Positions 10,666 through 21,285 of a stretch of DNA of 64,000 nt are shown here, in pieces. The stretch comes from an uncultured Actinomycetota bacterium. GTDB lineage: Bacteria > Actinomycetota > Acidimicrobiia > Spongiisociales > UBA4744. The notes under the pieces are model-generated. The model saw only the letters and a list, made by a program, of their open reading frames with translations, was not told the DNA's origin and did not search any database. Where the stretch lies: contig CAVQSB010000019.1 in the NCBI GenBank assembly GCA_963715305.1, forward strand, positions 19,072 to 83,071, written 5' to 3'. How positions within the stretch are numbered: the first letter of the stretch is position 1; every line of letters begins with the position of its first letter. Both the position numbers and the translations under genes were made by a program.

Positions 10666-11566
10666 CTATCCCCCGATCGCAACGCAGGAAGGACCCTGCG
10701 GATAGGGAACGGTCTTGACCGAAGCGCGAGCCGGTCTGGATCACGGCGCCGGTGTCGATGATGAGGTGCCCATCCTCGGTGACTTCGATGACGAACCGAT
10801 CGAGGTTGCGGGGGGCCGGGCCACCTTCGTACTCACCGACGAAGTTGTATTTGGAACCATGGCAAGGACATTCAAAACCTTGTGAGGTCGCACACCAGGG
10901 CACCCGGCAGCCCAGGTGCACGCATTTCTGCCATAAGGCCGTGAGCCCTCCGGCGACAACACTCTTTCCTTCGAATTGAACTCCTGCAGCCTCATCGAAG
11001 GGCATGACGTAGGCGCGCGCATCGGGGATGAAGAGGGGCTGCACCGAACCATCCGGCAGGAAGACCTGGGCGCGCACGTCCTCGACCAACCCGGCGTCGA
11101 TCTTGCCGCCAAACCCTCCCGACAGCTTGGGCCAGAAGAAGGCAAGCATCGACAACCCCATCAAGCCCAGATAGCCGCCGAAGGTCGTGAGCAGCGCCCG
11201 GTTGAAGAACTGCCGGCGCGTGACGCCGGCTTCCTCGGGCGAAACCTCGACAACCCGTTGGACCTCGGCGACCGCCACGGCGGCCGATGCGGCGGCTGCA
11301 GCGGCGGGAGCCTCGACAGGTTCTCCAGGCCCTTCGTCGATTTCGTCAAGGCCTTCTTCAACCGGCTGCGGTTCGACCACCGGCGCCGGAGTTATGACCG
11401 GAGCCGACTTCTCCGAGACATCGGCGGCCCGGGTTTCCCTGGAGAGAGCCGACCGCCAGTCCGTTTCTTTCTCCCCGCCGCGCCGGTAGGCGATGGCGAA
11501 CGCCGCCAAGGCCGCCAGAAGGCACACCGCACCAATCGACACAATGAGGATCTGCTGTGTGCTCAT
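10559..11566 (-). CDS. Rieske [2Fe-2S] iron-sulfur subunit of a quinol:cytochrome c reductase (QcrA/PetC-like)
   Basis: Box I CVHLGCRV and box II CPCHGSKY, with an N-terminal TM (MSTQQILIVSIGAVCLLAALAAFAIAY). The C-terminal boundary is uncertain because the ORF runs on without a stop into the qcrC-like start. Confidence 0.7.
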   Translation of the reverse strand: MSTQQILIVSIGAVCLLAALAAFAIAYRRGGEKETDWRSALSRETRAADVSEKSAPVITPAPVVEPQPVEEGLDEIDEGPGEPVEAPAAAAAASAAVAVAEVQRVVEVSPEEAGVTRRQFFNRALLTTFGGYLGLMGLSMLAFFWPKLSGGFGGKIDAGLVEDVRAQVFLPDGSVQPLFIPDARAYVMPFDEAAGVQFEGKSVVAGGLTALWQKCVHLGCRVPWCATSQGFECPCHGSKYNFVGEYEGGPAPRNLDRFVIEVTEDGHLIIDTGAVIQTGSRFGQDRSLSAGSFLRCDRGIGGQQHHCHHGRRAGCHRLAGLSGVPTACEAAAEKR

Positions 11567-12050
11567 TCGAAGGAAATCCAGTCTTTGAGATCGTCGAACC
11601 AAATGCCGTCCGACCATGGATAGCTGAAGTTGAAGCCCGGGCCCCGGAACAGAACCCCGATGATCGTCAGGGTTGCGGAGGCAACCAGGAAGAAGGTGAA
11701 GAACGCAATGGCGAACTTGCGGTCGGACGGTTTCGTTGACGGGTTGCGGTCTACATACGGAACTGCCATCAAGCCGATCAAACCGACCACGGTCGGAACC
11801 AGGACTCCCCCGACCTGTGGATCGAAGTAGGACAGGAGTTCCTGCAAACCAAGGAAATACCAGGGTGCCTTGGACGGGTTGGGAGTCAGGTTGAAGTTGG
11901 CGAGGTCCAGAAGGGGAGCTTGCAGGATGACGCTGAGCACGACCAGCAGTGCAGTCACGGCCAGCAAAGCAACGAATTCGATCAGGAGCAGGTGCGGCCA
12001 GACGCTCACCTTGTCGGTCGGTTCGGCTTTCACCTGTTGAATCGACTTGG
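11563..12050 (-). CDS. Cytochrome b subunit IV-like (C-terminal half of cytochrome b, PetD-like) membrane domain
   Basis: PNPSKAPWYFLGLQELL, the characteristic PEWY-type motif of cyt b C-terminal domain/subunit IV, plus 3 TM helices. Upstream it is joined in-frame (after frame corrections) to the Ala/Pro linker and motif repeats at 12047..12861. Confidence 0.6.
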
Positions 12051-12861
12051 CGCGAACCACCGTTAAGAGCCGCTGCGGGCGAACCCCTTCGGGGGTTCCG
12101 GCCGGTGGAACGACCGGCGGAGCGGTGATGGTCGTGGTGCGGCCCCCCGGAGCCTCTGAAGCAGGTTCGGCAGCTGACGCAGCCGCCGCCGCCGGCGCAA
12201 CCACCGCAGCGGCTCGCGACCGCCGCGCAGGCTGCGGAGCCGCCGGAGCAGGCTCAACAACCGCGGGAGCGGGCGCTTCCGCGGCCGGTTCCGAAACCGG
12301 AGGACTCGGCGTCCCCCGGTCATCTCCGCCAGGATGTCCTCAACCGGACGACCGGTCGCCTTGGCCTTCGCCTCCGCCGAACGGCGCAACAACGCCTCAG
12401 GAATCTTCGACGCAGCCGCAGCCGCCGCCGGCGCAACCACCGCAGCAGGCTCAACAACCACCGGAGCAGGCTCAACCGCCATCCAGCGAGCACCGGTTCC
12501 GAAACCGGAGACTCGGCGTCCCCGGTCATCTCCGCCAGGATGTCCTCAACCGGACGACCGGTCGCCTTGGCCTTCGCCTCCGCCGAACGGCGCAACAACG
12601 CCTCAGGAATCTTCGACGCAGCCGCCGCCGCCGCCGGCGCAACCACCGCAGCAGGCTCAACAACCGCCGGGGCGGGCTTCGACAACCGACAAGCGCGGGT
12701 TGTTCGACATCGGCCGCTGGTTCGGCGGGTGCCTGCTGAGGCGCAGCAGCCATCTTTCCCAGCGCGTTCTCGCGAGCTGCGGCCTCCCGAGCCTGAAGAT
12801 CTTCGGGAATCGTCGTGCCGGGCGTGTCGGCGCTCACACCGCCGGAGACTTCCTCAATCAA
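12047..12861 (-). repeat. Coding tandem repeats: a copy ending near 12290 and two near-identical 206-bp copies at 12291..12496 and 12497..12700, each encoding AAVVAPAAAAAASKIPEALLRRSAEAKAKATGRPVEDILAEMTG, preceded by a divergent copy (TTIPEDLQAREAAARENALGKM); the frame is broken between copies
   Basis: ORFs 12334.. and 12540.. (plus strand) start with 42 identical residues, so the period is 206 nt. Minus-strand ORFs 12063..12482 and 12320..12685 both contain the identical peptide. Copy A reads cgtcccccggtc and copy B reads cgtccccggtc, a homopolymer-length difference. Confidence 0.65.
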
Positions 12862-12989
12862 CGCGGACGGGCTTCGGCCCCTTCGGGGGCCAGGCCCATG
12901 TCTGCCAGGACCTGCTCGAGTGGCACGCCAAGGGCCTTGGCACGCGCTTCGGCGGACCTCCGGAGAAGATGCTCTGGGATTTCGGGCAT
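12858..12989 (-). CDS. Mini-ORF (43 aa) made of one copy of the recurring module: MPEIPEHLLRRSAEARAKALGVPLEQVLADMGLAPEGAEARPR
   Basis: ATG at 12989 is preceded by AAGGAG 7 nt upstream and sits 11 nt after the cytochrome b6 stop. The ORF is below the 60-aa track threshold and was found by manual translation. Confidence 0.4.
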   Translation of the reverse strand: MPEIPEHLLRRSAEARAKALGVPLEQVLADMGLAPEGAEARPR

Positions 12990-14977: not shown

Positions 14978-15700
14978 CTATTCGACCATTCTCCGCCGAA
15001 ACAGGAGCAGGGCCAGGGCGACGGTCACCACGGTGTAGGCGAGCACCCAGGAGAAATCGGATGCGATGGCCCCGAAACCCGCACCGTCCAGCATGACATC
15101 ACGGGTTGCGTCGAGAGCGTGCGCGAATGGAAGGGCGTTTCCGACGCTTTGGAAGACACCTCCGATAGCGTCCAGATCCATCCAGGCCCCTCCGAAGATC
15201 GTCAGGAGGAGGATGACGGCGTACGCGCCTGACAACGGCGTCAGCGGCAGGACCGATCCGAGGATCATTCCCGTGCCCACGTAGAAGATCGCAGTGACCA
15301 ACAAGACAAGGACGACTAGGCCGACGCTTCCGGCCACCTCCAACCCGAGGAGCGCTCCGATGCCGTAGAGCAAGAGCGCCTGGATGATGGCGACCGGCAG
15401 ATACGGCAACGAGTAGGCGGCAACGAGGTCTCTCGCCCGAACCGGCGCGGTGAGCAATCGGGCGAAGAGGGCGGTTTCGCGGTCACGGGAGAGCGTCATG
15501 GCCGCACTGAACATCAGCATGACGAACCCGAAGAGCACAATTCCCGGCGCTAACACCGTCGGCGAGAAAAACGCATCGACACTGCCAAAGGCCTGGAGCA
15601 CGAGCAAGAGCAGCACGGGCAGCCCGATGGTGATTCCCAGCGAGAGAGGATCTCGCCAGACTTCTTTGAAGTTCCGCTTGGCCAACTCGAGGGATCTCAT
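14978..15700 (-). CDS. ABC-2 family transporter permease
   Basis: 240 aa, 6 TM, ABC-2-type pattern. Its start overlaps the upstream ATPase stop in an ATGA arrangement. Confidence 0.6.
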   Translation of the reverse strand: MRSLELAKRNFKEVWRDPLSLGITIGLPVLLLLVLQAFGSVDAFFSPTVLAPGIVLFGFVMLMFSAAMTLSRDRETALFARLLTAPVRARDLVAAYSLPYLPVAIIQALLLYGIGALLGLEVAGSVGLVVLVLLVTAIFYVGTGMILGSVLPLTPLSGAYAVILLLTIFGGAWMDLDAIGGVFQSVGNALPFAHALDATRDVMLDGAGFGAIASDFSWVLAYTVVTVALALLLFRRRMVE

Positions 15701-16642
15701 TCTCGCAACTGCTTTCCCGTGAGACGCAGGAACACGTCATCCAGGGTGACCTGCTTCCTGTACGTGGACTGGATCGTCACCCCCAGGGGTCGCAGAATGT
15801 CCTGGATGTTGTAGACGCTTGCCTGTTCGCCCTCGATCTCAACCCTTCCGTTGACGGCCCGAACCGTCGGGTAGACCTGCCGGAGGGCGTCGAAGGCAGC
15901 CTCCGAGAGGTTCTCTCGCCTCAACGACCATCACCGACGTGTCGGCGATGCCGTCTTTCAGCTGAGCGGGAGGGCCAAGCGAGACGACCTTTCCTTCGTC
16001 GATGATGGCGACCCGGTCGGCCAGCGCATCTGCCTCTTCGAGGTAGTGGGTGGTGAGCAGAATCGTCTTCTCGCCCTTGAGGCCTTCAATGTGCTCCCAG
16101 ATGGCCCTTCTCGACTGGGGATCCAGGCCGAGGGTGGGTTCGTCGAGGAACAGCACCTGGGGATCCGAGACGAGCGCCATGGCGATGCTGAGTCTGCGTT
16201 TCATGCCCCCGGAATACTTCTTGACCCGCTCCTTGGCCCGGCTCATCAGACCCATCATCTCGAGGAGATCGCCGGATCGCTTCCTTGCCTCTTGCTTGTC
16301 GAGTCCGTGCAACCCCGCCATGAGGCTCAAGTTCTCCCAGGCATTGAGACGATCGGCAATCGCCGACTCCTGTGGCGAGACGTCAATGACCGCCTTCACG
16401 GCCAGAGGATCCTTCCGGACGTCGTGACCCATGACGATGGCGGTGCCTCCGGTCGGTCTCAGCAAACAACACAGCATCTTGATGGTGGTGGTTTTGCCTG
16501 CCCCGTTGGGTCCCAGCAGCGAAAAGAGCTCGCCGCGCTCGACGTTCAGATCGATACCGTCAACGGCGACGAACTTGCCGAATGTCCTGGAGAGACTCGA
16601 TGTCTGGATGGCACATGCAATGCTTTCAGCAGGTCGGCTCAA
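15697..16642 (-). pseudogene. ABC transporter ATP-binding protein, frameshift near 15920
   Basis: Walker A LLGPNGAGKTTTIKML, signature YSGGMKRRLSIAMAL and Walker B LFLDEPTLGLD in ORF 15839..16642. The C-terminal domain is in ORF 15697..15924 in another frame. Confidence 0.65.
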
Positions 16643-16703
16643 GAACGCTCCCGGACGTCGTACATCCTTCCTAAGGGCTCAGCCCAGGGTCAGATAGAGG
16701 ACG

Positions 16704-17105
16704 TTGGTCCCTTCGACTCTGAAATTGGACCCCGAATCCCCTTGGGGTCACTGCCGCCGGGTACCTTCCGCGTTTCCCGGCCGGCGGAGTTTCTGTCATC
16801 TGGTTTCTCTTGGGTCCGGTACCGACCTCGACAACCTCATCACGTTATGTGGATATCATCACCGACTCTTCCACGAGCACGGCTGGACCGTCACCGGCCA
16901 CCCGGACCGTCACATCACCTGGCACCGCCCCGACGGCTATCCCTTCCGAGCCCGACCGCCCGCCCGACCACTCCACCAATGGAAACACACGCTCGACCTC
17001 ATGCTCCCGATCCAACCACCCGACCGGGTCGCGCCACCCCCTACCCGCTTCTACATTGACGGGCCCGCGTTCGACGGCGAGAATTGCCGCCGTTCGACGG
17101 CATGA
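16704..17105 (+). mobile_element. Remnant of an HNH endonuclease gene of the actinobacterial 13E12/DUF222-HNH type (C-terminal HNH part only)
   Basis: DLDNLITLCGYHHRLFHEHGWTVTGHPDRHITWHRPDGY matches the HNH C-terminus of REP13E12-family proteins (from memory). There is no upstream DUF222 part, so the gene is truncated. Confidence 0.45.
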
Positions 17106-17144: not shown

Positions 17145-18650
17145 ATGCTCGTGCGCCGGGCACGAAAGATTCGATTCGAGGAGGGTGAGGGGTTGGCAAC
17201 CGCCACGACCGCAGCACGGTCATCACTCGTCGATTTTCTCGCGCCCCGGGATACGGATTCGGCAGCCCGAAGGCACCTGATCGCCGCCGTCATCTTTCTG
17301 CTGGTGGCCGGCTTCTTCACCATGCTGCTCTTCGTCAAGCTTGCCTACCCCAACTTCCTGGGCGGGCAGGCCTTCACCACGTACGGCCGTCTCCGCCCGA
17401 TTGCGATCTCCGCAACGGTGCTCGGGTTCGTGACTTTGATGCACATGGCCGCCATTTACTACCTCGTACCCAGACTGACCGGGGCTCGGCTCTGGAATGA
17501 ACGGCTCGCCAACCTCGGGCTCTGGCTGGCGGTCGGCGTGAACGTGGCCGCCATCGTGGCACTGGCGGCCGGGTATTCGGATGGCCGGGAGTGGCTCGAG
17601 ATCCCCTGGTGGCTCGACATCGCGGTCGTGTGTCATGCTGCTGGTGCCGGGTGCCGTTGTGGCTCGCACCATGAAGGACCGCACCGAAGAAGGACTGTTC
17701 GTATCGCTGTGGTACTTCCTGGCCGGCCTCTTCTGGGTGGTCGGGCTCTATGTGGTCGGCAACATCCCGAATCTGTACGGAGCGGCCTCACAGATCCAGT
17801 CGTCGTTCTTCGTGTCCGGGAGTGACCGAGTTGTGGCTGATCGGCATCGGTGTCGGCACCGCCTACTACCTGGTCCCCAAGATCACGGATAGCCCGCTCT
17901 TCAATCGCCAGCTGGCGCTCATCGGATTCTGGTCGCTCGCCTTTGCCGGAGCCTGGCTTGGGCAAAGCCGGTTCATCTACGGTCCCGGCCCGGAATGGCT
18001 GGAAACGACCGCCTCTGCCTTCGCTCTAGCACTGGTGGTTGCCGCCATGGCGGTGGTCACCAACCTGGTCGGAACGATGAGCGGGAAGTGGTCGATGCTG
18101 CGGGAATCGGCTGCCCTTCGATTCACGATGGTCGGTGCCGCCCTGTACCTGATCGTGGCCCTGCTTCGTTTCCTACCCGGGCTTCGTTCGGTTGCGGTCT
18201 TCACCGGCCTGACGAGTTTCGGGGACGGCACGATGGCACTGGTGCTGTTCGGCCTGGCCGGCCTGTGGGCGGCCGCCTTCGTCTATCACGCACTCCCCCG
18301 ACTCATCGGACGCGAGATCTACTCGGAACGGCTCACCAGGGTGCACCTGCGCGGCCACCCTGATCGGAGCAGGTTCGCTGGCACTGTTGCTGTGGATGGC
18401 CGGTCTCGTCTCCGGATACTCGTGGGCGGCCGGGGCGTTGACCGGCGCCTATGTCTCCGCAGGCGAAGGCTTCGCCAACACGGTCGATCAAGTCCGCCTC
18501 GCCTACAGCCTCACGGCCCTGGCAGCACTCGTGCTCTTCGGCGGTCAGGTCGTTTTCGCCTACAACACCTATCGCACCTTCACCTCCGGCACGCCGACAG
18601 TTCATGAAGCGCTGGTAGCCGGCAAGCCCGTCGAGGTGGCCGATGAGTAA
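17145..18650 (+). pseudogene. Heme-copper oxidase subunit I homolog of the cbb3 CcoN type, with 3 frame changes (about 17625, 17820, 18360) and, as read, no canonical histidine ligands
   Basis: CcoN-like motifs recalled from memory: YGRLRPIAISATV (vs fGRLRPLHTNAV), AAIYYLVPR, EWLEIPWWLDI (vs EWPIDI), GVGTAYYLVPK (vs WGHNAVGF..MYYFVPK) and AAFVYHALPRLIGREIYS (vs ALYHLYPRLFG). Followed by ccoO with an 8-nt overlap. Confidence 0.5.
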
Positions 18651-19430
18651 CGAGACATTGGCTGCAGCTGCAGAGATCATGGGTGTACCCGAACCGCTGG
18701 TGCAACGATCCGCCCAGGCTCGCGCCCAGGTCGGTGGAATCGGTGTCGACGAAATCCTGGGGGCGTGGAGCGGCGGTGCCGCCGTCACTCCTTCGGCCGC
18801 CCCTCCCCCGGCTGCCCCACCCCCCGAGCCGGAGCCAGTTCCGAAGTCAGCCCCGGCCGCCCAAGCTGTCGAACCCGTGCCCGCCCCCACCCCACCGGCC
18901 GAGGCGGCAACGGCGGTAGCCGTCCTCGGAAACACCCATCCAGGAAGGCTCACCGGTATTGACCGGGCGCCGGGAAAGCCCTGGCTTCCCTCCTGGCCGG
19001 AGTGGTCGGCCTGTTCCTGGTCGCCGTGCTCTTTGCGCTGGTCCTGCCGGCTCTTCGACGGAATACCGCAAACACCCCCGCCGAGCGGTTTGAGTGAGCT
19101 CGGGTTGCAGGGACGAGATGTCTACGTGACCGAAGGTTGCTGGTACTGCCATACCCAACAGGTGCGGCCGATCGTGACCGATGCCAAGCTCGGACCGGTA
19201 ACCCGGGCGGACCTGCTGGCATCCTTCGCTCCCGACACGCTGGGCATCCAGCGGATCGGACCGGACCTGGCCCATGCCGGGAGCCGGGAGCCGACCAACG
19301 ATCCGGCGTGGCTGACCAAATTCCTCACCAACCCGCGTCGGTGAACCAGGACAGCCTCCAACCCGGGTACGGCCATCTGTCGGACGCCGACCTGGCGGCG
19401 CTGGTCCAGTACCTTGTGGAGTCCCGATGA
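18643..19430 (+). CDS. CcoO-like monoheme cytochrome c subunit with an extra N-terminal cytoplasmic module and Pro/Ala linker; one frame change near 19340
   Basis: GCWYCHTQQVRP...GIQRIGPDLAHAG...FLTNPR is a CcoO/NorC signature. The N-terminus (MSNETLAAAAEIMGVPEPLVQRSAQARAQVGGIGVDEILGAWSGGAA) is absent from canonical CcoO. The C-terminus continues in ORF 19137..19430 (LSDADLAALVQYLVESR) and ends in an ATGA overlap with the next gene. Confidence 0.6.
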
Positions 19431-20445
19431 GTGAGCATCTGTCCGCTGCCGCCGAATCCATGGGAGTCCCCGAATCGCTCGTGCAACGCTCCGCCCAGGC
19501 GCGCGCTGCGGCCGGCTCCATCTCCGCTGAGGACGTGCTCGCCGCCTGGGCAGGTGGAGCAGCCGCTCCTCGTAGCTCCGCCCGCTCCTGTTCCCGAACC
19601 TCCCGCCGCCGAAACTTCCGAACAACCGGCAAAGCCGGAGCCGGAGGCCGCCCCGCCGCCCCCCACCCCCAGCGCGGCACCGGTATCCGCCCCACCCGGA
19701 GAACCCCGGGCTATCCCGGCCCGACCGGTACCCGAATCCGTCGGCATGGCAGGGGCGAATGAATGGGAGTCGGTCATCACCGTCCCAACCGCCGGGCTTC
19801 GGGAGCGAACCATGACCCGGGTGCCGTCCTGGTTGACGGTCCGTCTTCGTGATCCTTCCTCTCGTCGGACTGCTCTACCTCGTGCAGTTCTCAGGAGGGC
19901 CCGACTGCGGGAACAGCGGTCTGCTGGCCGTCGATCGTGTCTCCGGGGAGGTCGTGAACTGTGACGGATCGCCGTTCGAGGGTCGGGGCGCACCCGGCGG
20001 AGGAACCACGAACTTCCTGGCCCTCGGCCAGACTCTGTATGCAGACGCCCAGGTGGCCTGCATCGGCTGCCACGGCGCCGGCGGCGAAGGTGGCGTCGGC
20101 CCGGCCTTTGCCGGAGGAGCGGTTCTCGTCACCTTCCCGACGTGCGCCGATCATGTGCAATGGGTTCAGCTGGGATCCAGCGGTTGGCAAGCCCAGGTGG
20201 GCACCGAGTACGGAGCACAAGGGACGCTCTCCAAGGGCGGCATGCCCGGCTTCGTCGACTCGCTCAGCGACGAGGAGCTTCGGTCGGTCGTCGCCTTCGA
20301 ACGGGTGAGGTTTGGTGGGGCCAACCTCGACGAAACCCTGGTTGACTGCGGCCTGGTGATCCCGGAACTACCGGTAGACGTGACGGAGGCTCCGGCCGGC
20401 GAAGGCGGGGACGCAACCACCACCACGACCGAAGCCACCGGCTAG
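19427..20445 (+). pseudogene. CcoP-like membrane-anchored cytochrome c with the same N-terminal module; 2 frame changes (about 19570, 19850)
   Basis: N-terminal MSEHLSAAAESMGVPESLVQRSAQARAAAGSISAEDVLAAWAGGAA, then a Pro/Ala/Glu linker, a TM (ILPLVGLLYLVQF) and a heme domain CIGCHGAGGEGGVGP in ORF 19849..20445. Confidence 0.5.
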
Positions 20446-20454
20446 TAGGGCCCG

Positions 20455-21285
20455 TTGGGAGAAACAACGGCCATCCATGCCGCCGATCGACCGGCCACCG
20501 CTCGCAGCCTCGCCCGCGATCTGGTCACGCTCGGGATAGCGAAACGGATGACCGTGATCGTCCATGCATCGCTTTCCCGGCTCGGTTGGGTTGCCGGGGG
20601 CGTCCCAGGCGGTGGTCGATGCCCTCCTCGACGCCATCGGCGAAGGCGGCACGTTGGTGATGCCGACCCATTCGGGCGGCCTTTCCGATCCGGCCGTCTG
20701 GCAGAACCCCCCGGTGCCCGAATCGTGGTGGCAAACCATTCGCGATGAGACGCCTCCCTACGACAAACGTCTGACCCCCACCCGGCAGATGGGTGCGATC
20801 GTCGAGTGCTTCCGCCACTACCCGGGAGTGCAGAGAAGTGATCATCCGCAGGTCTCATTTGCTGCACTCGGTCCCAACGCCGACGGGTCACCGGCGACCA
20901 TTCGCTGGAGCACCCGCTCGGCGAAGGCTCCCCGTTGGCCCGCCTCTATGATCTCGACGCCTCGATCCTCTTGCTCGGCGTCGGTCACGAGAACAACACG
21001 GCCCTGCACCTGGCCGAATATCGGGCCGACTACCCGGGCAAGGAGTGGACGGCCCAGGGCGCCCCGGTCACCATCGACGGAGAACGCCGATGGGTGAACT
21101 TCGAGGATCTCGAAGGTGACGACTCGGACTTCGCTGAGATTGGGACGGCCTTCGCCGCCTCCGGCGCTGAGCGAGCAGGGCCGGTAGGAAGCGGAACGGC
21201 CCGTCTGATGGGGATGCGGGATCTGGTCGACTTCGGCGCAGCCTGGATGACCACCCACCGGGTCAAACCGTCGGACCATCGCTAG
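20455..21285 (+). pseudogene. AAC(3)-family aminoglycoside N-acetyltransferase-like, 2 frame changes (about 20585, 20900)
   Basis: VIVHASLSRLGWVAGG, GTLVMPTHSGG, QRSDHPQVSFAALGP and LLLGVGHENNTALHLAEYRA match the AAC(3) fold family (from memory). They are spread over ORFs 20455.., 20564.. and 20935... Confidence 0.55.

What the first reader, a model, noticed from the sequence alone, without database searches (positions are those of the whole stretch)
18643..19570. The same module sits at the N-terminus of both c-type cytochrome subunits of the cbb3-like oxidase (CcoO-like and CcoP-like)
CcoO-like begins MSNETLAAAAEIMGVPEPLVQRSAQARAQVGGIGVDEILGAWSGGAA. CcoP-like begins MSEHLSAAAESMGVPESLVQRSAQARAAAGSISAEDVLAAWAGGAA. 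Each is followed by a Pro/Ala-rich linker, a TM helix and the heme domain. This is the same motif family as the b6-cluster repeats (P-E-x-L-[LV]-[RQ]-R-S-A-[EQ]-A-[RK]-A ... [IV]-L-[AG]-x-[MW]-x-G-G). Canonical CcoO and CcoP start directly with their membrane anchor. One shared cytoplasmic tag on subunits of two different respiratory complexes suggests a common docking, assembly or regulatory partner, for example supercomplex tethering. That role is speculation.
Basis: partly seen in the sequence, partly recalled or inferred. Interest (0 to 1): 0.7.

Follow-up and report, generated by a model that had tools for sequence, protein, structure and literature searches.

The report
Shared cytoplasmic tag on respiratory subunits
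A small, previously undescribed three-helix domain on a long floppy tether is attached to the cytoplasmic ends of several different respiratory-chain membrane proteins in Acidimicrobiia, and the "cbb3 oxidase" that carries two of the copies has lost every metal-binding histidine of its catalytic subunit, so it cannot be an ordinary oxidase.

Summary
A ~45-residue module occurs five times in the window: at the N-termini of the CcoO-like and the downstream cytochrome c genes, and three times in the cytochrome b subunit-IV-like gene. It is as conserved as the haem domain in more than 100 Acidimicrobiia homologues. AlphaFold2 predicts a confident three-helix bundle, followed by a 43-74 residue disordered acidic Pro/Ala/Glu linker and an N-in membrane anchor. 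It matches no Pfam, NCBIfam or PDB entry.

An exhaustive profile search found only 454 cluster representatives. Proteins carry 1-7 copies, in five carrier families, all respiratory or next to respiratory operons. A Trp variant sits on CcoO, the cytochrome c and a caa3-adjacent membrane protein. A mostly Met/Leu variant sits on the bc-complex subunits.

Three corrections apply:
- Both genes are broken by frameshifts in this noisy assembly.
- The "CcoP-like" protein has one haem, not two.
- The CcoN partner lacks all six haem/CuB histidines in 28 of 28 module-bearing loci, against 6/6 in 47 of 48 module-free loci.

Function is inferred, not shown. The most likely role is a multivalent protein-docking tether that holds these complexes together or recruits a common partner. 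DNA binding is unlikely because the module is acidic.

The parts
18643..18777 (+). W-type module at the N-terminus of the CcoO-like gene (MSNETLAAAAEIMGVPEPLVQRSAQARAQVGGIGVDEILGAWSGG)
   Evidence: The module HMM scores E = 1.5e-23. The region is conserved in CcoO homologues, with R22, A24, A26, R27, G32 and W42 invariant. AlphaFold2 predicts a three-helix bundle. The start overlaps the CcoN stop.
18778..18979 (+). CcoO-like Pro/Ala/Glu-rich linker and juxtamembrane GRRES. A frameshift from frame 1 to frame 2 lies near 18928.
   Evidence: Three-frame translation and peptide mapping. In homologues the linker is 43-74 aa, P 27% A 25% E 12%, with pLDDT about 50-68 and no secondary structure.
18978..19055 (+). 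CcoO-like membrane anchor (ALASLLAGVVGLFLVAVLFALVLPAL), read in frame 0
   Evidence: The equivalent helix 119-143 in homologue P0002 has pLDDT 78-96. Arg residues precede the helix and Asp follows it, which indicates an N-in orientation.
19075..19430 (+). CcoO-like haem c domain (FixO), with CWYCH at 19138-19152. A frameshift lies near 19338. The MPxY motif reads QPGY here.
   Evidence: Pfam FixO PF02433, E = 3.2e-21. CXXCH is invariant. The axial-Met position is Q 30, H 29, M 6 of 65 homologues, against M in 36 of 36 canonical CcoO.
19427..19558 (+). W-type module at the N-terminus of the downstream mono-haem cytochrome c ('CcoP-like')
   Evidence: The module HMM scores E = 3.4e-23. The ATGA start overlaps the CcoO stop. 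The same arrangement recurs downstream of CcoO in the module-bearing Acidimicrobiia loci, with 1-4 copies.
19559..20445 (+). Rest of the CcoP-like gene: acidic Pro/Ala linker (frame 0, 19578-19742), TM helix (frame 1, 19840-19890), and a single-haem cytochrome c domain (CIGCH at 20059-20073)
   Evidence: Pfam Cytochrom_C E = 7.6e-8 and Cytochrome_CBB3 E = 1.1e-7. Only one CXXCH is present.
17145..18650 (+). CcoN-like gene (COX1 fold, four frame pieces) that lacks all six haem/CuB histidine ligands
   Evidence: Intact homologues match Pfam COX1 at E = 1e-17 to 1e-21. The ligand columns are non-His in the window and in eight further loci. The result is 0/6 in 27 of 28 module-positive loci and 1/6 in L017, against 6/6 in 47 of 48 module-negative loci.
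12894..12989 (-). M-type module copy 1, at the N-terminus of the cytochrome b subunit-IV-like gene (MPEIPEHLLRRSAEARAKALGVPLEQVLADMG)
   Evidence: The module HMM scores E = 1.3e-16. The same N-terminal copy is present in the subunit-IV-like ORFs of 22 other loci.
12521..12634 (-). M-type module copy 2 of the subunit-IV-like gene
   Evidence: HMM E = 3e-17. It is part of a 206-bp tandem duplication.
12315..12428 (-). M-type module copy 3 of the subunit-IV-like gene, nearly identical to copy 2
   Evidence: HMM E = 7.7e-18. The tandem repeat spans 12285-12678, period 206, 96% matches.
11566..12087 (-). Membrane core of the subunit-IV-like protein (PetD / cytochrome b C-terminal domain)
   Evidence: Peptide mapping. 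The L043 homologue matches Pfam Cytochrom_B_C at E = 2.7e-7. Six of 82 module carriers match this family.

Best explanation
The module is a lineage-specific (class Acidimicrobiia) three-helix protein-interaction domain of about 45 residues. It is displayed in the cytoplasm on a long, disordered, acidic Pro/Ala/Glu tether. It is fused to the N-in ends of membrane subunits of the respiratory chain:
- the CcoO-like subunit and the neighbouring mono-haem cytochrome c of a ligand-less CcoN complex;
- subunit IV of the b6-type bc complex, and in some lineages that operon's small membrane protein;
- a polytopic membrane protein encoded beside the caa3 oxidase operon.

I think it most likely acts as a multivalent docking tether. 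Modules on different complexes would bind one another, with the acidic W-type on the oxidase-side proteins pairing with the near-neutral M-type on the bc side, or by self-association. That would keep the complexes together in one respiratory assembly.

Shown: the domain is real, folded, conserved, cytoplasmic, restricted to this class, variable in copy number, and shared by these carriers.

Inferred: that it binds protein, and what it binds.
For: 1. Constraint: module column identity is 0.69, linker 0.43 and haem domain 0.67. R22, A24, A26, R27, G32 and W42 are invariant.
2. Fold: three helices, pLDDT 89 for the module alone and 90-95 inside the full-length protein. The linker has pLDDT about 50-68 and no secondary structure.
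3. Carriers: the exhaustive profile search gives 454 cluster representatives, with up to 7 copies per protein. Carriers are FixO, cytochrome c, Cytochrom_B_C, the small bc-operon membrane protein, and a ~400-aa membrane protein lying next to COX2-COX1-COX3-COX4-CtaG in three contigs.
4. Variant split: position 42 is Trp in 123/123 CcoO, 68/68 cytochrome c and 85/85 family-5 modules. It is Met/Leu in 17 of 32 subunit-IV modules and 7 of 10 small-TM modules. Net charge is about -3 against about 0.
5. Synteny: the divergent b6 and CcoNOP-like operons are linked in the module-bearing loci that extend far enough to show both.
6. Homogenisation: CcoO and cytochrome c modules of one genome are 80% identical on average. 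Between genomes they are 55-74% identical, and the two do not separate into orthologous groups.
7. Copy number changes by recent tandem duplication. That is expected where valency matters.
Against: - No binding was tested. Only single-chain prediction was available.
- W-type and M-type share the same invariant motif (R-S-A-x-A-R/K-A...G). That fits a common third partner or self-association better than complementary pairing.
- Nine of 32 subunit-IV modules are W-type.
- Tethers of 43-74 residues or more reach far beyond what neighbouring membrane complexes need.
- The link between family 5 and caa3 rests on adjacency in three contigs, two of them closely related, with the genes convergent.
- Fold searches gave no informative relative.
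Confidence: 0.4

Rival explanations
1. The modules do not bind each other. All of them recruit one soluble cytoplasmic partner to the respiratory complexes by 'fly-casting' on the long tethers. Candidates are an assembly or quality-control factor, a regulator, or the 2x[4Fe-4S] ferredoxin-like protein that heads the b6 operon.
For: - Both module variants keep the same invariant surface motif.
- The tethers are long, disordered and acidic, and the modules occur in tandem arrays of up to 7. From established knowledge, this resembles the peripheral-subunit-binding domains of 2-oxoacid dehydrogenase E2 and the ribosomal L7/L12 stalk.
- The window and the examined locus L043 both carry a soluble Fer4 dicluster gene at the head of the b6 operon. 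That gives a cytoplasmic candidate in the same locus.
Against: - No partner was identified. Within +/-10 kb only the carriers themselves contain the module.
- No natural fusion of the module to a soluble protein appeared among the 82 long hits.
- The clean W/M split by carrier is not needed if all modules bind the same ligand.
Confidence: 0.3
2. The module is a helix-turn-helix nucleic-acid-binding domain that anchors the respiratory complexes to the nucleoid or to mRNA.
For: - One carrier, P0245, matches Pfam Xre-like-HTH above its cut-off (39.5 bits against 25.8). It also matches HTH_23 above its cut-off (26.2 against 24.6) and matches Sigma70_r4_2 and HTH_31 weakly, below their cut-offs.
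- Three of 82 carriers hit Xre-like-HTH at E < 1e-3.
- The fold is tri-helical with Gly at both turns.
Against: - The window's own modules hit no HTH family, even at E <= 10.
- W-type modules are acidic, with a mean net charge of -2.5 to -3.2, and they sit on linkers of net charge about -8.
Confidence: 0.07
3. The module has no specific ligand. Module plus acidic linker would act as a passive element: a topogenic or solubility cap that fixes the N-in orientation of the signal anchor, or an entropic spacer on the cytoplasmic face.
For: - It is always N-terminal to an N-in first TM helix.
- Linker length and sequence are free to vary.
- Copy number varies widely with no obvious pattern.
Against: - Passive elements do not keep six invariant residues, including two arginines, across sequences that are 40% identical overall.
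- Canonical CcoO and subunit IV reach the same topology without it.
- Tandem arrays of a precisely conserved fold point to valency, not bulk.
Confidence: 0.1
4. Artefact: an untranslated leader or a chance Ala-rich low-complexity match.
For: The region is Ala-rich. The window assembly is full of frameshifts, so its ORF calls are unreliable.
Against: - The module is conserved at the protein level in intact ORFs of more than 100 homologues, and 454 representatives were found in a 1.84-billion-protein library.
- Identical residues are maintained through synonymous codon changes.
- The start codons show translational coupling.
- The fold is predicted with confidence.
Confidence: 0.01

Closest known systems
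Canonical cbb3-type cytochrome c oxidase (CcoN-CcoO-CcoP, C-family haem-copper oxidase)
   Same: Gene order N-O-P with overlapping stops and starts. CcoN has the COX1 fold (PF00115). CcoO has the FixO domain with CXXCH. The third subunit is a membrane-anchored cytochrome c of the Cytochrome_CBB3 family.
   Different: - All six haem b, haem b3 and CuB histidines of CcoN are replaced.
- The CcoO MPxY methionine is Gln or His in 59 of 65 homologues.
- The third subunit has one haem, not two.
- CcoO and the third subunit carry the cytoplasmic module and linker. None of the module-free loci carries it, and 47 of 48 of those have a fully liganded CcoN.
Peripheral-subunit-binding domain (E3_binding, PF02817) and the Ala/Pro-rich linkers of 2-oxoacid dehydrogenase E2 chains
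   Same: The comparison rests on established knowledge, not on a test here. Both are small helical domains of about 35-45 residues, flanked by long flexible Ala/Pro-rich linkers. In both, the number of tethered domains varies, and the E2 domain docks partner proteins.
   Different: There is no sequence match in Pfam. The module has three helices rather than two. It is attached to membrane proteins, and its partner is unknown.
Tri-helical helix-turn-helix domains (for example Xre-like-HTH PF20432, HTH_23)
   Same: A three-helix bundle with glycine turns. One carrier lineage (P0245) scores above the Pfam cut-offs for Xre-like-HTH and HTH_23.
   Different: The window's modules and 79 of 82 carriers do not match. 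The domain is acidic rather than basic. It occurs in tandem arrays on respiratory membrane proteins.
Obligate cytochrome bcc-aa3 supercomplex of Actinomycetota (Mycobacterium, Corynebacterium)
   Same: The comparison rests on established knowledge. It is the same phylum, the respiratory chain lacks a soluble cytochrome c, and the bc complex is physically coupled to its oxidase.
   Different: There the coupling is through integral membrane contacts and the di-haem QcrC. No shared cytoplasmic tag is known. Here cytochrome b is split in the b6 manner (PMC4122944 reports split cytochrome b in an Acidimicrobidae strain), and physical association is only inferred.

Membership tests
cbb3-type cytochrome c oxidase (C-family haem-copper oxidase) | Subunit I (CcoN) with the COX1 fold | tested here: met
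   Pfam COX1 matches at E = 3.8e-17 (L043) and 1.9e-21 (L004) over nearly the full profile. The sequences align well with canonical CcoN.
cbb3-type cytochrome c oxidase (C-family haem-copper oxidase) | Six invariant histidines that ligate haem b, haem b3 and CuB | tested here: not met
   None of the six is His in the window or in 27 of 28 module-positive loci, and L017 has one of the six. By contrast, 47 of 48 module-negative loci have all six.
cbb3-type cytochrome c oxidase (C-family haem-copper oxidase) | CcoO: FixO domain with CXXCH | tested here: met
   PF02433 matches at E = 3.2e-21. C, C and H are invariant in 65 homologues.
cbb3-type cytochrome c oxidase (C-family haem-copper oxidase) | CcoO methionine of the MPxY motif. 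I assign it as the sixth haem ligand from memory of the P. stutzeri structure. | tested here: not met
   The position is Q 30, H 29 and M 6 of 65 homologues, and Q in the window. Canonical CcoO has M in 36 of 36.
cbb3-type cytochrome c oxidase (C-family haem-copper oxidase) | CcoP: di-haem cytochrome c with the FixP_N anchor | tested here: not met
   There is one CXXCH (CIGCH at 20059-20073) and one cytochrome c domain. FixP_N matched 1 of 82 carriers, weakly.
Helix-turn-helix DNA-binding domains (Pfam HTH clan) | Profile match above the family cut-off | tested here: not met
   The window's modules match no HTH family at E <= 10. Only P0245 passes the Xre-like-HTH and HTH_23 cut-offs. Three of 82 carriers match at E < 1e-3.
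Helix-turn-helix DNA-binding domains (Pfam HTH clan) | Tri-helical fold with a sharp turn | tested here: inconclusive
Helix-turn-helix DNA-binding domains (Pfam HTH clan) | Basic surface that binds nucleic acid | tested here: not met
   Mean net charge is -2.5 to -3.2 for W-type modules and -0.6 to 0.1 for M-type. Binding itself cannot be tested with these tools.
Peripheral-subunit-binding domain (E3_binding) | Profile match to PF02817 | tested here: not met
   There is no match in Pfam scans of the modules or of the carriers.
Cytochrome b6f subunit IV / cytochrome b C-terminal domain (the carrier of the M-type copies) | Match to the Cytochrom_B_C domain, encoded directly after a split cytochrome b6 gene | tested here: met
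   PF00032 matches at E = 2.7e-7 for the L043 homologue, whose upstream gene matches PF00033 at E = 5.5e-47. The window has the same order: b6 at 13620-13003, then subunit IV at 12989-11566.
The module family itself (undescribed) | Motif G-x-P-E-x-L-[VL]-x-R-S-A-x-A-[RK]-A-x-A-x-G-x(5)-[VI]-L-x-x-[WM]-x-G in a three-helix fold, N-terminal to an N-in anchor via a Pro/Ala/Glu linker | tested here: met
   All five window copies score E <= 1e-16 against the profile. The architecture is confirmed in homologues.

The most novel reading that the evidence does not exclude
Acidimicrobiia build a previously unknown respiratory assembly. In it, a catalytically dead C-family oxidase (ligand-less CcoN with CcoO-like and mono-haem cytochrome c subunits) has been repurposed as a cytochrome-c-bearing adaptor between the b6-type bc complex and the caa3 oxidase. 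The W-type and M-type cytoplasmic modules are the multivalent fasteners that hold the parts together.
Probability: 0.2. Interest if true: 0.85.

Novelty: new variant of a known kind. Interest (0 to 1): 0.66.

Why it matters
1. The module is a conserved protein domain with no entry in Pfam, NCBIfam or the PDB. It marks a defined set of respiratory membrane proteins in a whole bacterial class that is abundant in oceans, soils and sediments. It gives a direct handle for pull-downs and cryo-EM aimed at how that respiratory chain is organised.

2. The complex that carries it is routinely annotated as a cbb3 oxidase. NCBI names the homologues 'cbb3-type cytochrome c oxidase subunit II'. Metagenome papers credit Actinobacteriota MAGs with cbb3 oxidases, for example PMC8357290, although I did not check whether those MAGs carry this form. 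Its catalytic subunit has no metal ligands. Inferences of high-affinity, micro-oxic respiration in Acidimicrobiia drawn from these genes may therefore be wrong.

3. A dead haem-copper oxidase retained under selection together with its cytochrome c subunits would be a clear case of an enzyme turned into a scaffold or electron-transfer adaptor.

Tried and rejected
- Pfam and NCBIfam scans of the modules found no family.
- A sequence search of PDB chains with the module profile found nothing below E = 0.25.
- The word-indexed profile search returned only short fragments and said nothing about carriers. The exhaustive search replaced it.
- All-against-all clustering of stop-to-stop ORFs, meant to find conserved neighbours, was swamped by antisense and low-complexity ORFs of these GC-rich loci. 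I used a GC3-based gene call on two loci instead.
- A search for the family-5 membrane protein in the window and in the 80 CcoO loci found nothing. It is encoded elsewhere, next to caa3.
- Literature searches found no description of the module or of a ligand-less CcoN.
- A recent intragenomic duplication as the source of the CcoO/CcoP similarity is rejected. Nucleotide identity is 67% with many synonymous differences.
- An untranslated leader or low-complexity artefact is rejected (see the rival explanations).
Full report
**What is in the window**

The window is about 64% G+C. Its closest relatives are all metagenome-assembled Acidimicrobiia.

Around the finding, the plus strand encodes three genes:
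- a CcoN-like gene, 17145-18650;
- a CcoO-like gene, 18643-19430;
- a membrane-anchored cytochrome c, 19427-20445.

Their stops and starts overlap (GATGAGTAA at 18643-18650, ATGA at 19427-19430), and each start is preceded by a purine-rich site.

The minus strand carries a b6-type bc operon:
- a 2x[4Fe-4S] ferredoxin-like gene, 14242-13792;
- cytochrome b6, 13620-13003;
- a subunit-IV-like gene, 12989-11566;
- a Rieske protein, starting at 11566;
- a di-haem cytochrome c, with CXXCH at 10349-10335 and 9503-9489;
- a small membrane protein, 9217-8862.

Almost every one of these genes is broken by frameshifts:
- CcoN is in four frame pieces.
- CcoO reads through frames 1/2/0/1/0.
- The cytochrome c reads through frames 2/0/1.
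- Subunit IV has at least three pieces.
- An unrelated ABC ATPase is also split.

One shift maps to a G-run length difference between two otherwise identical repeat copies. The public protein P0004 (233 aa, from a 149-kb NCBI/ENA contig) equals the frameshifted ORF. I read these as assembly errors, but that is an inference.

**Check of the observation**

Both quoted N-termini are present.
- They share 30 of 44 residues. Sixteen of those are encoded by different synonymous codons, and nucleotide identity is 67%.
- BLASTP gives E = 7e-6.
- A profile of the module finds five copies in the six-frame translation at E <= 1e-16 and nothing else below 0.0075.
- Two of the five are the copies in the finding. 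The other three lie in the N-terminal extension of the subunit-IV-like gene.
- Copies 2 and 3 of that gene belong to a 206-bp tandem duplication with 96% matches.

**Is it translated and conserved?**

Yes.
- A search with the stitched CcoO protein returned 171 relatives. Most are 250-280 residues long and cover the whole query.
- In alignments of 31 and 65 of them, the first 46 positions are as conserved as the haem domain. Mean column identity is 0.69 for the module and 0.67 for the haem domain.
- The following 43-74 residues are conserved only in composition, at 0.43. They are P 27%, A 25% and E 12%, with a net charge of about -8.
- R22, A24, A26, R27, G32 and W42 are invariant in the 31-sequence alignment. 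In the 65-sequence alignment A26, R27, G32 and W42 stay invariant, and R22 and A24 are at 90% or more.
- AlphaFold2 on the module alignment gives a three-helix bundle (helices 3-13, 17-31 and 35-42) at mean pLDDT 89.
- In the intact homologue P0002, the module scores 90-95. Residues 45-110 score about 50-68 with no secondary structure. A TM helix follows at 119-143, then the haem domain.
- GRRES precedes the helix and LPALD follows it. This agrees with the known N-in topology of CcoO, so the module faces the cytoplasm.

**How far does it extend?**

The module matches nothing in the reference libraries:
- Pfam and NCBIfam gave no match.
- The PDB chain-sequence search gave no match.
- Fold searches were uninformative.

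An exhaustive profile search of 1.84 billion cluster representatives found 454 proteins at E <= 0.001, with up to seven copies in one protein. Every source name that gives a lineage points to Acidimicrobiia or Actinomycetota, with three kinds of exception:
- three MAGs labelled Acidobacteriota, whose loci are collinear with the Acidimicrobiia ones;
- one protein from a MAG labelled Candidatus Sulfomarinibacteraceae;
- a few labelled only 'bacterium'.

The carriers fall into five families:
1. CcoO-like proteins.
2. The mono-haem cytochrome c that follows CcoO, with 1-5 copies.
3. Subunit IV, with 1-5 copies.
4. The small membrane protein of the bc operon. P0241 has seven copies. The window's homologue at 9217-8862 has none.
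5. A ~400-residue polytopic membrane protein with no Pfam match. One member, P0340, ends in a plastocyanin-like domain, with only weak NCBIfam matches well below cut-off.

The fifth family is not in the window. In three independent contigs it lies directly beside a caa3 operon, COX2-COX1-COX3-COX4_pro-CtaG.

In 80 genome loci fetched around CcoO, the module was found in 30, all of the Acidimicrobiia type. Where the locus extends far enough, it sits on CcoO, on the next gene, and on the subunit-IV-like gene of the divergent operon about 3.5 kb upstream. Loci from other phyla have none.

**Two variants**

| Carrier | Residue at profile position 42 | Mean net charge |
|---|---|---|
| CcoO-like | Trp in 123 of 123 | -3.2 |
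| Mono-haem cytochrome c | Trp in 68 of 68 | -2.5 |
| Family 5 | Trp in 85 of 85 | -3.0 |
| Subunit IV | Met 15, Trp 9, Leu 2, gap 6 (of 32) | -0.6 |
| Small bc membrane protein | Leu 4, Met 3, Tyr 1, Trp 1, gap 1 (of 10) | 0.1 |

Within one genome, the CcoO and cytochrome c modules average 80% identity. Across genomes, CcoO-to-CcoO and CcoO-to-cytochrome-c identities are the same, at 55-74%. The two copies are therefore being homogenised or are co-evolving, rather than diverging as independent orthologues.

**The carrier complex is not an ordinary oxidase**

The CcoN-like protein is a full-length COX1-family member (E = 1e-17 to 1e-21) and aligns block by block with canonical CcoN. Every metal ligand is nevertheless replaced:
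- RPIHTN becomes RIETAAN or RPIAIS.
- YMHNAV becomes FLAGFV.
- GSHHFL becomes GAAQLL.
- GHSHL becomes AVEYV.

Across all loci, none of the six ligand positions is histidine in 27 of 28 module-positive loci, and L017 has one. In contrast, 47 of 48 module-negative loci have all six.

CcoO keeps CXXCH. The methionine of its MPxY motif is present in 36 of 36 canonical sequences. In the 65 module-bearing homologues the position is Gln in 30, His in 29 and Met in 6.

The third subunit has one haem. The locus therefore fails the defining features of a cbb3 oxidase, while clearly descending from one. I found no description of this in the searchable literature.

**How it most likely works**

Five things are shown:
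- A folded, strongly constrained, acidic-to-neutral three-helix domain is held in the cytoplasm on a long disordered acidic tether.
- It is fused to several membrane proteins that are respiratory or encoded beside respiratory operons.
- It occurs in tandem arrays whose number changes quickly.
- It is restricted to one class.
- It is perfectly associated with the ligand-less CcoN clade.

From established knowledge, this anatomy is that of a docking domain, as in the peripheral-subunit-binding domains of E2 chains or the L7/L12 stalk. I therefore favour a protein-protein docking role.

Two versions remain open:
- Module-to-module association would tie the bc complex, the CcoNOP-like unit and the caa3-adjacent protein into one assembly (confidence 0.4). 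The W/M split by complex and the charge difference favour this version.
- Recruitment of a common soluble partner (confidence 0.3). The shared invariant motif and the very long tethers favour this version.

A nucleic-acid-binding HTH is a weak rival. One lineage passes Pfam HTH cut-offs, but the window's copies do not, and the domain and linker are acidic. A purely passive role does not fit the invariant arginines. An artefact is excluded.

**Comparison and novelty**

The module is a new domain family. The architecture of a tethered small docking domain is a known kind, but its use as a common cytoplasmic tag on respiratory membrane subunits is not described. Nor is the ligand-less CcoN complex that carries it. 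I rate the finding a new variant of a known kind, with moderately high interest. Mechanism and partner remain to be found.

Noticed in passing
window 17145-18650 (+); L043 8506-10005, L004 8455-10002 and 26 further loci: The CcoN-like subunit keeps the COX1 fold but has lost all six haem b, haem b3 and CuB histidine ligands. The loss coincides perfectly with presence of the module: 28 of 28 module-positive loci, against 6/6 His in 47 of 48 module-free loci.
   Followed up: yes
window 19338-19427 (+) (…SLQPGYGHLS…); alignment A5: The methionine of the CcoO MPxY motif is present in 36 of 36 canonical sequences. It is Gln (30), His (29) or Met (6) in the 65 module-bearing CcoO homologues, which suggests altered ligation of the haem c.
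   Followed up: partly
window-wide, e.g. 17145-20445 (+), 14242-8862 (-), 16642-15697 (-): Coding regions are riddled with single-base frameshifts, roughly one per 200-400 bp, in unrelated genes as well. One maps to a G-run length difference. This looks like an unpolished long-read assembly. Public ORF calls such as P0004 and P0192 are truncated accordingly.
   Followed up: partly
window 12285-12678 (-): A 206-bp tandem duplication (1.9 copies, 96% matches) created module copies 2 and 3 of the subunit-IV-like gene. Copy number of the module ranges from 1 to 7 across homologues.
   Followed up: yes
window 14242-13792 (-); L043 7304-7753 (-): A soluble 2x[4Fe-4S] ferredoxin-like gene (Pfam Fer4, E = 3.6e-12) heads the b6-type bc operon, directly upstream of cytochrome b6. 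A cytoplasmic iron-sulfur partner for a bc complex is unusual and is unexplained.
   Followed up: partly
L083 10001-11227, L084 10001-11227, JGI contig of P0340: A fifth carrier of the module is a ~400-aa polytopic membrane protein with no Pfam family. JGI sometimes calls it 'MFS family permease'. One member has a C-terminal plastocyanin-like domain. It is encoded immediately beside the caa3 oxidase operon.
   Followed up: partly
window 9217-8862 (-); P0241: The small membrane protein that ends the bc operon has no module in the window. Its homologue P0241 (618 aa) carries seven tandem copies.
   Followed up: partly
window 14978-17105 and 20455-21285: Compared with collinear loci (L043, L026), the window has extra genes in two places. 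An ABC transporter pair and an HNH-endonuclease-like fragment lie between the divergent operons. An aminoglycoside-acetyltransferase-like ORF follows the cytochrome c. The identities are read from the sequences and were not tested.
   Followed up: no
L011, L014, L027 (records titled 'uncultured Acidobacteriota bacterium'); P0482 ('Candidatus Sulfomarinibacteraceae'): These records carry loci or proteins of the Acidimicrobiia type, with the same gene order and module. The taxonomic labels are probably wrong.
   Followed up: no
P0006, P0234, P0166: Source annotations of module-bearing proteins include 'ribosomal protein L12E/L44/L45/RPP1/RPP2', 'energy transducer TonB' and 'HpaF protein'. These are apparently triggered by the Pro/Ala/Glu-rich linker and are misleading.
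   Followed up: no
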